This document shows, piece after piece, positions 12,773 through 20,060 of a DNA stretch of 30,694 nucleotides (positions within the stretch are counted from its first letter, which is position 1; each line of letters starts with the position of its first letter). The position numbers were made by a program, and so were the translations under genes. Under the pieces are notes generated by a model, which saw only the letters and a program-made list of their open reading frames with translations, was not told the DNA's origin and did no database searches. The stretch lies in IMG/VR virus record IMGVR_UViG_3300034283_002405, positions 1 to 30,694 of that record; one strand, 5' to 3'. This stretch comes from a virus. Lineage: Duplodnaviria > Caudoviricetes.

Positions 12773-13042
12773 ATGACAAACAAAGAAAGGCTTGAGGACT
12801 TTTTGGAAGAAAATTGGATTGATGAAGGTGACGCAGTCAAATTGCTATTTGAAATTGCAAGGCGCAAAAGTAGAGGCCACTTGAAAGCACTGTTGTGTGA
12901 GTTGCCAAATGAGCTGGCATACGAAGGCTATATTGTTTATAAAACAGAGACGCAAAAAGAAAGCACGCAGATCATTGAGGCCATTCAAAAAATTTGTCCT
13001 GGTTATCGTGAGCAAAAGGAAAAATTATTTTATGAAAATTAG
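12773..13042 (+). CDS. Hypothetical protein
   Basis: 89-aa ORF with A-rich initiation region. Confidence 0.65.
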   Translation: MTNKERLEDFLEENWIDEGDAVKLLFEIARRKSRGHLKALLCELPNELAYEGYIVYKTETQKESTQIIEAIQKICPGYREQKEKLFYEN

Positions 13043-14550: not shown

Positions 14551-15099
14551 ATGTCAACAGAAACAACAACAATCACAATTGGCCCGGTAAGATTTTCTTA
14601 CTTACACGTTTGGGAGCCTCAGGCAATTGAGGAAGGCCAGCCTAAAAAATTCTCATGCAGCGCAATTATACCAAAGTCGGACAAGGCGCTTATCAAAAAG
14701 ATTCAAGGTGCAATTGAGCTTGCAAAATTGAATGGCAAAGACTCTAAGTTTGCAGGCAAAATCCCAGCAAATTTAAAATCCCCACTTAGAGACGGTGACG
14801 AAGATCGCAGCGAAGACGAGAACTATGCAAACAGCATGTTTGTAAGTTGTCACTCAACAACTCGTCCAGGTATCGTGAACGCTAACCGTCAGCAGATTTT
14901 AAACCAGGACGAGATCTACTCAGGTGCGTATGGTTATTTGAACGTGACTTTTTATCCTTACAATGCTGCTGGCTCAAAAGGTGTTGCTGCTGGTTTAAAT
15001 CACGTCATGAAAACCAAAGACGGTGAGCCTTTCAGCACTAAAATAAGTGTTGACGCTGCATTTGAAGATGTGGAAATTGAAACAGACGATTTGCTCTAA
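14551..15099 (+). CDS. ssDNA-binding protein, DUF2815 (T7 gp2.5-like)
   Basis: VRFSYLHVWEP, PLRDGDE, EIYSG.Y, GSKGVAAGLN, KDGEPF and acidic tail DDLL. Confidence 0.92.
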   Translation: MSTETTTITIGPVRFSYLHVWEPQAIEEGQPKKFSCSAIIPKSDKALIKKIQGAIELAKLNGKDSKFAGKIPANLKSPLRDGDEDRSEDENYANSMFVSCHSTTRPGIVNANRQQILNQDEIYSGAYGYLNVTFYPYNAAGSKGVAAGLNHVMKTKDGEPFSTKISVDAAFEDVEIETDDLL

Positions 15100-15111
15100 A
15101 TAGCAATGGTT

Positions 15112-15179
15112 GCCTGTATGGTGGAAATTGGCAAGTGTGACCTTGCCAATGCTGAGTCCGATGCTTAGCACAGGCGCAA
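15112..15179 (+). ncRNA. tRNA-like element (acceptor stem + T arm + one central hairpin, no D stem)
   Basis: GCCTGT(A)/(C)ACAGGC acceptor stem; CTGAG-TCCGATG-CTTAG T arm; ATTGGCAAG-TGTGAC-CTTGCCAAT hairpin; intergenic. Confidence 0.5.
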
Positions 15180-15193
15180 AATCTTATAAATAT

Positions 15194-15427
15194 ATGGAAA
15201 ATTTAAAAAACTTGAATGGTGGCGAAATTCGCACCAAGCTAGAAAACAAAAAGAAAGCACTTGCTGAGCTGTCATTGAGTCTAAACAAAACAAGTGACGA
15301 ATTGTTTTTGAAAAGTCTAATGGATAGCATAACACAAATGCAAAACGATATTACTTCACTTGAGCAAGACCTTGTAATCATTACAAAGCCAATCCAAAAA
15401 AGCTTAAACCAATCTTTTGACCTATAA
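15194..15427 (+). CDS. Small coiled-coil protein upstream of polA
   Basis: ATG 15194 (MENLK...); TAATG coupling to polA. Confidence 0.65.
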   Translation: MENLKNLNGGEIRTKLENKKKALAELSLSLNKTSDELFLKSLMDSITQMQNDITSLEQDLVIITKPIQKSLNQSFDL

Positions 15428-17325
15428 TGGAGCTGGCTATTGACATTGAAACCTACAGCGAAAATGACATAAAATGGGGCGTGCACAAATACGCTGAGTG
15501 TCCTAAATTCGAAATCTTACTTTTTGCCTATTCAATTGACGCTGGTCCTGTGCAAATCATTGACTTGGCAATGGGTGAAAAAATACCTGGTGAAATTTAC
15601 AATTTGCTTACTGACGAGACTTGCACAAAAACAGCCTACAACGCAGCCTTTGAGATGACTTGTCTGCAAGCCTATTTAAAAATACAACTTGATCCTCACC
15701 AATGGAGTTGCACGCAAGCACTTGCAGCTCAAGCGGGTTGGCCGTTTGGTTTGGGCAATGTTGCCAAGGCAATGGGCAATGCAGTCCAAAAAGACACCAA
15801 AGGCAAAGAACTTATTAAATTTTTCACTATGCCTTGCGTCCCTTCAAGATCAAACAACATGCGCACACGCAACAGGCCAATTGACGATTTTGACAAGTGG
15901 GCAAATTTTAAAAGTTATTGCATACAAGATGTTGAGACTGAGCTGGGCATACGTGCGCAGCTTTCTTGGTTTATTGTGCCTGAGTTTGAGAAGGAAGTTT
16001 GGGCATTGGACCAACAGATTAACAACAGAGGCGTGAAAGTTGATTTGGAACTTGTCAGAAACGCTGTTGCCATGGATAAAATAGTGGCTGACAAGTTAGT
16101 TGAGGAAATGTTTGAACTTACGCAAATCTCCAATCCAAAGTCAAACGCTCAAGTCAAAAAATTTATTATGGACGCAACAGGTGAGGACGTCAAATCTTTG
16201 AACAAGGGAGCTATGGCAGAAGTCAACACGATGTTTAAAGACACTGAAATTGAGCACGTGTTGAAGATTCGTGAAAAGCTTAGCAGAACGTCTATAAAAA
16301 AGTTTACAGCCATTTTAAACAGCGCTTGCAATGACGGCTGCGTCAAAGGTTTGTTCCAATATTATGGCGCCAACAGGACAGGCCGTTGGGCTGGCAGAAA
16401 TGTGCAACTCCAGAACTTGAAGCGCAATGATCTCAAAGAGCTTGACTTGGCTAGGCAACTTGTCAAAGAAAACAATTTGGAGGTGCTTGAGCTGCTATTT
16501 GATGACGTTGGATATGTCTTGAGCAATCTGATAAGGACTGCGTTTGTTGCTTCACCTGGCAACAGTCTAATCGTGTCAGATTTAAGTGCAATTGAAGCAA
16601 GGATCATTGCTTGGCTTGCTGGCGAAAAGTGGAGGCTTGACGTTTTTGCAACACACGGCAAAATTTACGAAGCCAGCGCTTCTGTTATGTTCAAAATCCC
16701 TCTTAATGAAATCACCAAAGAACTGAGGCAAAAAGGTAAAATTGCAGAGCTTGCTCTTGGATACCAGGGCGCTGTTGGTGCGCTTGAGCGAATGGGTGGC
16801 GCTGCAATGGGTTTGTCAAGTGACGAGATGACAAGGCTTGTCAAGCAGTGGCGCAATGGGAACAAAAAGATTGTTGATCTTTGGACAACTGTCAATGACT
16901 GCGCAATTGAGGCTATTATGTACGGCTCCAGCAAAATGGACAAATTAAATTTTTCCTTTAAAAATAAAAACCTGATCATTGAGCTTCCTTCTGGACGCAA
17001 TTTGATTTATATTTCAGCAACATATAACGGCAAGGCAATCACTTACAAAGGCATGGATCAAACGACAAAGCAATGGTCCACTCAAGACACGTATGGAGGC
17101 AAGCTTGTCGAAAATATTGTGCAAGCCATTGCCAGAGATGTTTTGACTGAGGCTTTGAAACGTCTGAAAAATTACAACATTGTCATGCACGTGCATGATG
17201 AGATAGTAATTGACGGCAATGTTGATGAGAAGCTAATGACTGACGCAATGAGATCACCTATGCCGTGGGCTCCTGACTTGCATTTGGGTGCTGAGACTTT
17301 CACAGCACAATACTATCAAAAATAA
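15427..17325 (+). CDS. polA: Family A DNA polymerase with 3'-5' exonuclease domain
   Basis: ExoI IDIETYS, ExoII YNAAFE, ExoIII YCIQD; RTGRW; motif A DLSAIEAR, motif B RQKGKIAELALGYQG, motif C HVHDE. Confidence 0.96.
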   Translation: MELAIDIETYSENDIKWGVHKYAECPKFEILLFAYSIDAGPVQIIDLAMGEKIPGEIYNLLTDETCTKTAYNAAFEMTCLQAYLKIQLDPHQWSCTQALAAQAGWPFGLGNVAKAMGNAVQKDTKGKELIKFFTMPCVPSRSNNMRTRNRPIDDFDKWANFKSYCIQDVETELGIRAQLSWFIVPEFEKEVWALDQQINNRGVKVDLELVRNAVAMDKIVADKLVEEMFELTQISNPKSNAQVKKFIMDATGEDVKSLNKGAMAEVNTMFKDTEIEHVLKIREKLSRTSIKKFTAILNSACNDGCVKGLFQYYGANRTGRWAGRNVQLQNLKRNDLKELDLARQLVKENNLEVLELLFDDVGYVLSNLIRTAFVASPGNSLIVSDLSAIEARIIAWLAGEKWRLDVFATHGKIYEASASVMFKIPLNEITKELRQKGKIAELALGYQGAVGALERMGGAAMGLSSDEMTRLVKQWRNGNKKIVDLWTTVNDCAIEAIMYGSSKMDKLNFSFKNKNLIIELPSGRNLIYISATYNGKAITYKGMDQTTKQWSTQDTYGGKLVENIVQAIARDVLTEALKRLKNYNIVMHVHDEIVIDGNVDEKLMTDAMRSPMPWAPDLHLGAETFTAQYYQK

Positions 17326-19755: not shown

Positions 19756-20040
19756 GGTGGCATACTAAAAAAGGCTTAATGGCATACCAAAAAAACAGAA
19801 AACATCCACCAAAATGCCACTTAAAATGTTTATTATTAATTATTTATATATAGTGGCATACTTGTCATACTACTATAAAGAAATAAATTGAATTAGAGTA
19901 TAAAATAGGTGCTTTATAGTCTAATCTAATATACTATATAAGAAAAATAGTGAGCCAAGTATGCCAGCGCGCTTAAACTATTGATTTAAAGTATTTTATG
20001 CGGATTTTTGGTGGTGCCTTTATTTTTTAAGGGTGCCACC
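19723..20040. repeat. Putative replication origin: TGGCATAC repeats in a large nested inverted repeat around an AT-rich core
   Basis: (G)TGGCATAC at 19723, 19757, 19780, 19853; inverted copies at 19814, 19959 and ~20033; largest non-coding gap, right after the primase. Confidence 0.7.
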
Positions 20041-20060
20041 ACCCAAAAAAGACAAAAAAA

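What the first reader, a model, noticed from the sequence alone, without database searches (positions are those of the whole stretch)
15112..15179. 65-nt tRNA-mimic lacking a D arm, between SSB and polA
Seen: the 5' end GCCTGTATGGTGGAAATTGGCA resembles the start of tRNA-Leu. GCCTGT pairs with ACAGGC (15170-15175), followed by G-CAA. A 5-bp stem/7-nt loop CTGAG-TCCGATG-CTTAG sits exactly where a T arm stacks on the acceptor stem. The D and anticodon arms are replaced by one perfect 9-bp hairpin (15127-15150) with loop TGTGAC. It also holds one of only two GATGC/GCATC sites found by eye in the genome, which suggests sequence constraint. Inference: an RNase P/Z processing signal, a decoy against tRNA-cleaving defence nucleases, or a Y-RNA/tmRNA-TLD-like small RNA.
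Basis: partly seen in the sequence, partly recalled or inferred. Interest (0 to 1): 0.75.

Follow-up and report, generated by a model that had tools for sequence, protein, structure and literature searches.

The report
tRNA top-half mimic behind phage SSB
A 65-base fold that keeps only the top half of a tRNA sits right behind the ssDNA-binding-protein gene of a freshwater phage; relatives carry reshaped tRNAs or a terminator-like hairpin at this spot, so it likely marks where host tRNA-trimming enzymes split the message, though no cut has been shown.

Summary
The fold is real (z -3.76): a 12-bp acceptor/T-stem stack, a T-type loop and one hairpin in place of both D and anticodon arms, 12 nt after the SSB stop. 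Three natural alleles keep all 19 pairs, with two double-sided T-stem changes, while the hairpin loop varies freely; three sequences give limited statistical weight. All 5 lineages of the window's SSB clade, more distant relatives and cultured Croceibacter phage P2559Y carry acceptor+T-arm elements in this slot. They range from a canonical tRNA-Met through expanded or deleted anticodon arms to a 49-nt minihelix. Terminator-like hairpins occur in 0 of 13 element-bearing lineages and 12 of 20 without. Best reading (0.55): a tRNA-derived processing signal, like plant t-elements, that splits ssb from orf77-polA and replaces a terminator. Main rival (0.2): a free tRNA-scaffold or decoy RNA. It is not a decoder, tmRNA TLD, attP site or Rfam tLRNA member. 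The 'perfect 9-bp' hairpin and the GATGC site are allele-specific. No RNA evidence exists. tRNA top-half mimics in phages are a known, often-noted kind, so this is a new variant.

The parts
14551..15099 (+). SSB gene (Enc34/DUF2815 type), upstream cistron
   Evidence: PF10991 E 1e-61; phrog_112
15100..15111 (+). 12-nt leader between the SSB stop and the acceptor stem; U at -1; 15100-15109 can pair with 15146-15155 in a weaker alternative fold
   Evidence: sequence; forced alternative helix 3-12 kcal/mol weaker, P(acceptor pair) >0.97 in all 3 alleles
15112..15117 (+). acceptor stem, 5' strand (G1 = 15112)
   Evidence: 6 of 6 pairs invariant in 3 alleles
15118..15128 (+). unpaired linker, relic of a Leu-type D-arm 5' side
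   Evidence: fold; likeness to the 5' ends of Bacteroidota tRNA-Leu genes
15129..15148 (+). 7-bp conserved hairpin (9 bp, 15127-15150, in this allele) with a variable 6-nt loop; replaces D and anticodon arms
   Evidence: 7 of 7 pairs invariant; 5 of 6 loop bases differ in L247
15151..15169 (+). T arm: 6-bp stem and 7-nt loop TCCGATG (TTCGATG in allele L002)
   Evidence: pair 15154-15166 is G.U / A-U / G-C and pair 15156-15164 is G-C / A-U / G-C in the three alleles
15170..15179 (+). acceptor 3' strand, discriminator G15176, CAA tail (CCA not encoded)
   Evidence: sequence; CAA follows the discriminator in 16 of 34 sampled Bacteroidota tRNA genes, CCA in 5
15194..15427 (+). 77-aa ORF of no known family, start codon 17 nt after the discriminator
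   Evidence: open in 3 alleles; no PHROG family, no Pfam hit over cut-off; spacing
15427..17325 (+). family A DNA polymerase, downstream cistron
   Evidence: PF00476; phrog_17

Best explanation
This is a tRNA-derived acceptor/T-arm fold, kept by compensating changes, that likely serves as an RNA-processing signal at the ssb / orf77-polA junction in place of a terminator. Shown: the fold, its conservation in alleles, the recurrence of acceptor+T-arm elements in this slot with a free middle domain, and their exchange with terminator-like hairpins. Inferred: the 12-bp stack would be read by the host's tRNA maturation enzymes; a 3' cut or trim after G15176 would release orf77-polA mRNA with a 17-nt A-rich leader, and RNase P would cut 5' of G15112, freeing a 65-nt RNA that may receive CCA. 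While attached, the fold would shield the 3' end of ssb mRNA. The net effect would be much SSB and little polymerase from one transcript. Origin (inferred): a captured Leu-type host tRNA gene whose anticodon domain was released from selection.
For: Fold z -3.76. 19 of 19 pairs kept in 3 alleles; all 4 variable paired columns stay paired, 8 unpaired columns vary; random placement keeps all pairs with P 0.09 (5 changes) and 0.02 (8 changes). The L002 allele recurs in contigs of 3 of 4 runs and 1 of 4. Descriptor: 17 hits in 15 of 241 distinct SSB loci (2 judged chance) against 0 on the reverse strand and 0,3,2,0,0 in 5 shuffles. 7 of 7 rows (5 lineages) of the window's SSB clade carry one (SH-aLRT 98). 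Rfam tRNA matches with altered anticodon arms: L040 49 bits (arm reduced to 3 nt), L248 42, L167 44 (3 of 12 loci searched), P2559Y 52. Acceptor sequences and discriminators differ among elements, so no shared synthetase identity. Terminator-like hairpin within 90 nt of the SSB stop in 0 of 13 element lineages and 12 of 20 others (Fisher p 5e-4; 1 of 13 at 150 nt, p 4e-3). 3' ends lie 14-39 nt before the next ATG in 12 of 12 elements measured. Precedent: t-elements (PMC1920247), RNase P substrates in bacterial mRNAs and phage RNAs (PMC4919922, section 5.4).
Against: No transcript, end or cut has been observed. Covariation rests on 3 close sequences and does not beat the column shuffle (121 of 500). 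The window's T loop has C at position 55 and its D-loop GG is buried in the hairpin, so a normal elbow is doubtful. A 5' cut by RNase P would leave ssb mRNA with an unprotected 12-nt tail, which is the opposite of what a terminator does; which cut dominates is unknown. Lineages in the terminator test are related and the tree is a quick SH-aLRT one. The descriptor demands pairing, so pairing in distant elements is partly circular; it missed L004, L007, L062 and the second L088 element. Several relatives keep a full D arm and large inserts (L248, L166, L003, L004, P2559Y), more than a cut signal needs. Two short relatives do not fold better than shuffles (L088 z -0.4, L249 z -0.7).
Confidence: 0.55

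Rival explanations
1. The product matters, not the cut: the slot behind a highly expressed gene makes a stable tRNA-scaffold RNA that acts in trans, as a decoy for defence enzymes aimed at tRNA acceptor ends or as a carrier of a variable cargo hairpin or antisense loop.
For: The middle domain varies from 18 to over 100 nt. One relative has a canonical tRNA-Met here. A second contig in run X9 follows the same SSB end with a different, Leu-tRNA-like sequence (30 letters seen), so the cassette is exchangeable within a population. The second elements of L003 and L088 share an invariant 15-nt loop stretch, which in L088 can pair with the next start region.
Against: The window's loop is not conserved (5 of 6 bases change). 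No antisense target longer than 11 nt in the window. No shared discriminator or acceptor identity. Without an anticodon loop it cannot decoy anticodon nucleases (general knowledge). It does not explain the exchange with terminators.
Confidence: 0.2
2. It is only a stable 3' structure for ssb mRNA (exonuclease barrier or pause site) that descends from a tRNA and is not cut by tRNA enzymes.
For: Exchange with terminator-like hairpins; C55 in two of three alleles; no elbow partner in the predicted fold.
Against: A barrier would not need a 12-bp stack, a T-type loop and an N-CAA end; relatives keep the T-loop consensus in 10 invariant columns of 13 aligned elements, and allele L002 has the canonical loop.
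Confidence: 0.12
3. A decaying tRNA pseudogene with no present function.
For: Graded series from canonical tRNA to remnant; none of the 5 closest genomes has a tRNA over Rfam's cut-off.
Against: Lesions fall in the D/anticodon domain while acceptor and T stems stay paired, with double-sided changes among alleles whose SSB genes differ at about 6% of bases; present in all 5 lineages of a clade spanning 55-100% SSB identity.
Confidence: 0.08
4. A DNA-level or coding feature: attP-type tRNA fragment, ssDNA hairpin signal, or the N-terminus of a TTG-started 105-aa protein.
For: The TTG frame from 15110 stays open in all 3 alleles. The fold also forms with DNA parameters (z -2.9), and the minus strand folds too. 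tRNA fragments at integration sites are common (PMC9897764, passages).
Against: No PF00589 integrase in the window or in 4 of 4 relatives searched; both acceptor strands are present; all elements lie on the coding strand; 4 of 5 changes in L002 alter the extension's amino acids, whereas 29 of 35 SSB changes are at third positions.
Confidence: 0.05

Closest known systems
t-elements of plant mitochondria (Forner et al. 2007, PMC1920247; abstract and passages read) and mascRNA/menRNA (PMC4919922, section 5.4 read)
   Same: Non-canonical tRNA-like fold at a gene border, keeping acceptor and T arm, proposed substrate of RNase P/RNase Z that defines mRNA ends.
   Different: Here in a bacterial virus, at one fixed slot, exchangeable with intrinsic terminators; no ends mapped; the window allele departs from the GGTTCRANYCC motif used in that paper.
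tLRNAs: skipping-rope RF02924, DUF2693-FD RF02926, salivarius-1 RF03030 (grouping as tRNA top-half mimics known to me only from earlier scan notes; source paper not seen)
   Same: Bacterial or phage intergenic RNA mimicking the tRNA top half without an anticodon arm.
   Different: No match to any of the three models at E<=1 in the window's genome or 4 relatives; here visibly derived from whole tRNA genes, with a variable middle and a single slot.
T4 RNAC and RNAD (PMC3014915, PMC9697503; passages read)
   Same: Small phage RNAs from a tRNA region with unknown role.
   Different: They sit in a tRNA cluster; their tRNA-like 3' ends are recalled, not checked; no sequence comparison was made.
P1/P7 C4 antisense RNA (RNase P substrate, cited in PMC4919922; structure recalled)
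   Same: Phage RNA with a three-stem junction cut out of a longer transcript by RNase P.
   Different: No Rfam match; loops not conserved and no antisense target found.
allo-tRNAs and irregular tRNA polycistrons (PMC5389517 passages; PMC7609411 section 7)
   Same: 12-bp acceptor branch split other than 7/5; some are inactive in translation; some in phages.
   Different: Those are 8/4 or 9/3 cloverleafs with anticodon and long V arm; this is 6/6 with neither.

Membership tests
canonical tRNA | 12-bp acceptor+T stack with 7-nt T loop | tested here: met
   6+6 bp rather than 7/5; loop TCCGATG, TTCGATG in L002
canonical tRNA | D arm | tested here: not met
   no D stem in the MFE or centroid fold of 3 alleles
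canonical tRNA | anticodon arm with 7-nt loop | tested here: not met
   6-nt loop, 5 of 6 bases variable; no ARAGORN or RF00005 call
t-element (tRNA-like processing signal) | tRNA-like fold with acceptor and T arm at a gene border | tested here: met
   12 nt after the SSB stop, 17 nt before the next ATG
t-element (tRNA-like processing signal) | GGTTCRANYCC T-arm motif | tested here: inconclusive
   absent in the window allele; T-loop consensus present in 13 of 13 aligned relatives' elements
t-element (tRNA-like processing signal) | mRNA ends coincide with element ends; cut by RNase P/Z | not testable with these tools
   needs RNA end mapping or in vitro cleavage
tLRNA families RF02924, RF02926, RF03030 | match to the Rfam model | tested here: not met
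   0 of 5 genomes for each at E<=1; none
tmRNA tRNA-like domain | G3.U70 alanine identity pair and tmRNA body | tested here: not met
   pair 3 is C-G; no tmRNA by ARAGORN or Rfam; the identity rule is general knowledge
bacterial Y RNA | Rfam Y RNA match | tested here: not met
   no match
bacterial Y RNA | Ro60/Rsr partner | not tested
   no family-specific search; none named among 35 ORFs scanned against PHROGs
C4-type antisense RNA | conserved loops complementary to a nearby target | tested here: not met
   longest exact complement 11 nt; loop variable
attP tRNA fragment | integrase and host-identical 3' tRNA part | tested here: not met
   no PF00589 in 5 of 5 records (the window's record is estimated 68% complete; serine recombinases not searched)
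allo-tRNA | 8/4 or 9/3 branch, long V arm, anticodon | tested here: not met
   6/6 branch, no V arm or anticodon

The most novel reading that the evidence does not exclude
The slot behind ssb is a natural tRNA-scaffold cassette: these phages capture host tRNA genes, keep the top half so that the host matures and protects the RNA, and swap the anticodon domain for variable cargo, giving a fast-evolving family of trans-acting small RNAs (decoys or antisense regulators) that is polymorphic within populations.
Probability: 0.2. Interest if true: 0.78.

Novelty: new variant of a known kind. Interest (0 to 1): 0.5.

Why it matters
If the processing reading holds, it shows tRNA genes being turned, step by step and repeatedly, into mRNA punctuation marks in phages, with the intermediates still visible and a clear alternative state (a terminator) for comparison. 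It gives a testable job to tRNA top-half mimics, for which the earlier notes seen report no measured cut, and a cultured system (P2559Y). It also shows that tRNA finders miss or mislabel such elements: the P2559Y element is unannotated in RefSeq. If the scaffold reading holds, it is a natural counterpart of the engineered tRNA scaffold.

Tried and rejected
ARAGORN and Rfam on the window: nothing at the locus. blastn of the element against 50,697 phage records: only short chance matches. No RNA holder listed among 24 runs, so expression is open; contigs cannot show ends; runs X11 and X13 laid nothing. The alternative cassette seen in run X9 was not found in viral contigs; only its first 30 letters were seen. 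One search had hairpin columns mis-registered; one search is the corrected count. A covariance model across distant elements was not built because MAFFT did not align the acceptor strands. The 60-aa neighbour gene as bait gave 5 new loci without such elements. Samples of 3 x 401 genomes from three Bacteroidota orders added 3 new loci, none with a T arm seen by eye in 450 nt. Bacteroides phages BF503P1 and BF486P2 show a terminator-like hairpin and no T arm. ARAGORN intron mode calls four long elements spliced tRNAs; I did not accept this (bacteria lack the archaeal splicing endonuclease, general knowledge; it cannot apply to the short window element). The alternative leader helix is not favoured at equilibrium. 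GATGC counts in relatives' whole genomes were not obtained. Literature: searches gave 0 papers; one gave 1 unrelated; others gave background only (listings seen; papers read as stated elsewhere). None described this element, but the library lacks most subscription papers, no search used the term tLRNA, and that paper and all supplements were not seen, so absence from print is not shown.

Full report
Setting. The window is a 30.7-kb virus record with direct terminal repeats. The finding lies in the replication module: exonuclease, HNH nuclease, SSB (14551-15099, PF10991), the element, a 77-aa ORF (15194-15427), family A polymerase (15427-17325), primase-helicase. The host is inferred to be a Bacteroidota species: the SSB falls in a 51-row subtree (SH-aLRT 92) holding five Bacteroidota-labelled rows, but also several Bacillota-labelled ones.

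The observation. G15151-C15169 extends the T stem, so acceptor and T stem form a 6+6 = 12-bp stack, followed by G15176 and CAA. Neither ARAGORN nor Rfam calls it. The 5' end resembles Bacteroidota tRNA-Leu genes, and CAA after the discriminator is the commonest ending in 34 sampled host-type tRNA genes (16 CAA, 5 CCA), but those Leu genes have discriminator A. GATGC/GCATC is strongly avoided in the window (2 found, 60 expected), probably restriction-site avoidance (inference).

Alleles. Two close relatives with identical SSB protein give two more alleles, L002 and L247. All 19 pairs hold in all three. Pair 15154-15166 is G.U, A-U or G-C; pair 15156-15164 is G-C, A-U or G-C; L002 has the canonical loop TTCGATG; L247 changes 5 of 6 hairpin-loop bases with the 7-bp stem intact. 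A15149T in both shortens the hairpin, so its 9-bp perfection is special to the window. The L002 change at 15164 removes the GATGC site and is compensated at 15156, which suggests structure, not the site, is under selection (inference). With three sequences the column shuffle is not beaten (121 of 500); random placement of the same numbers of changes keeps all pairs with P 0.09 and 0.02 (one change is shared). The L002 allele appears in contigs of 3 of 4 runs and 1 of 4; L247-type loop changes in 1 of 4 and 2 of 4; run X7 holds pieces of all three types. In run X9 a second contig follows the same SSB end with a different sequence that starts like a Leu-type tRNA (30 letters seen).

Relatives. 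I scanned up to 600 nt after the SSB stop in 241 distinct loci (44,094 nt) for a 7-bp acceptor plus T arm: 17 hits in 15 loci, of which I set aside L023 and L127 as chance; controls gave 0 (reverse strand) and 0, 3, 2, 0, 0 (shuffles). L004, L007, L062 and a second L088 element were seen by eye, and Croceibacter phage P2559Y has an unannotated one 76 nt after its SSB stop (52 bits to RF00005). All 7 rows (5 lineages) of the window's clade carry an element (SH-aLRT 98). In three near-complete relatives the T-loop motif occurs only in this gap, on the coding strand, and none of the five closest genomes has a tRNA over Rfam's cut-off. Of these 17 distinct elements only L092 is called as a tRNA with an anticodon at ARAGORN's default threshold without assuming an intron. 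The rest have a 6- or 8-nt loop (L167, L062), an expanded loop or inserts (L248, P2559Y, L166, L003, L004), no anticodon arm (L040), one irregular stem (second elements of L003 and L088), or little more than a minihelix (L088 49 nt, L213 51 nt, L249 57 nt). Acceptor sequences and discriminators differ throughout. So the top half is kept and the decoding half is free.

What else fills the slot. Within the 51-row subtree, near-copies collapsed and gaps over 60 nt or unknown only, a terminator-like hairpin lies within 90 nt of the SSB stop in 12 of 20 lineages without an element and 0 of 13 with one (Fisher p 5e-4); at 150 nt L167 has both (1 of 13, p 4e-3). Outside the subtree 24 of 116 rows have one. 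The lineages are related, so the p values overstate independence. Element 3' ends lie 14-39 nt before the next ATG (12 of 12 measured).

Mechanism. I commit to a processing signal (0.55). tRNA-like t-elements define mRNA ends through RNase P and Z in plant mitochondria (PMC1920247, abstract and passages), and bacterial RNase P cuts mRNAs and phage RNAs such as the C4 precursor (PMC4919922, section 5.4). That RNase P needs only the acceptor/T-arm stack and prefers U-1/G+1 is recalled. The host must trim and add CCA to its own tRNAs. The inferred result is separate ssb and orf77-polA messages and an expression step-down, the job a leaky terminator does in relatives. Against it: no RNA data, C55 in two alleles, a buried D-loop GG, and the fact that a 5' cut would unshield ssb mRNA. 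The trans-acting scaffold or decoy reading (0.2) rests on the large variable middles, the exchangeable cassette in X9 and a conserved loop in the L003/L088 second elements. A plain stability structure (0.12), pseudogene decay (0.08) and DNA-level or coding readings (0.05) follow; there is no tyrosine integrase in 5 of 5 records, and the TTG extension, though open in 3 alleles, changes mostly non-synonymously.

Comparison and novelty. It works like a t-element. It is not a member of RF02924, RF02926 or RF03030, nor a tRNA, tmRNA TLD, Y RNA, C4 RNA or allo-tRNA by the tests listed. Earlier notes of this scan report tRNA top-half mimics in many phages (64 findings hold the words), which lowered my novelty rating; none was found for this sequence or slot. 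These notes are unchecked leads, and I did not see the tLRNA paper they cite. T4 RNAC and RNAD are of unknown function (PMC3014915, PMC9697503, passages). What is new here is the fixed slot, the visible series from tRNA to minihelix, the exchange with terminators, and a cultured test system. Verdict: real, new variant of a known kind, interest 0.5.

Noticed in passing
run X9, record 9, after window 15111: A close relative with the same SSB end continues into a different, Leu-tRNA-like sequence of at least 113 nt: the slot is polymorphic within a population.
   Followed up: partly
L003:4955-5043 and L088:2130-2213: Orthologous second tRNA-like elements with pair-keeping acceptor changes and an invariant 15-nt U-rich loop stretch; in L088 it can pair with the start region of the next gene.
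   Followed up: partly
window 15100-15109 with 15146-15155: Alternative helix (10 bp perfect in L247, 9 in L002, mismatched in the window) that excludes the tRNA-like fold; weaker at equilibrium, possibly a co-transcriptional intermediate.
   Followed up: partly
L253:3418-3500, L092:2105-2186, L252:3538-3620: A different conserved structured RNA right after the SSB stop (2 double-sided changes in 22 pairs; no Rfam match); in L092 it precedes the tRNA-Met.
   Followed up: partly
window 19756-20041: AT-rich gap after the primase-helicase gene with four direct and several inverted TGGCATAC-type repeats; looks like a replication origin.
   Followed up: no
whole window: GATGC/GCATC avoided 30-fold (2 against 60 expected), as for a host restriction site.
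   Followed up: no
L003:4743-4925, L088:1917-2096, L248:3704-3886, L249:3661-3840: A conserved 60-aa gene without Pfam family follows the first element in four clade members; the window has an unrelated 77-aa ORF there.
   Followed up: partly
window 12782-13032: Differs from the 93%-identical relative L002, which has another segment of about 320 bp here.
   Followed up: no
L327:2613-2700 (Croceibacter phage P2559Y, NC_023614): Unannotated tRNA-like gene with an expanded anticodon loop in a 719-nt SSB-polA gap.
   Followed up: partly
L249:3921-4017: Second element holds a nested extra T-loop hairpin just before its own T arm.
   Followed up: no
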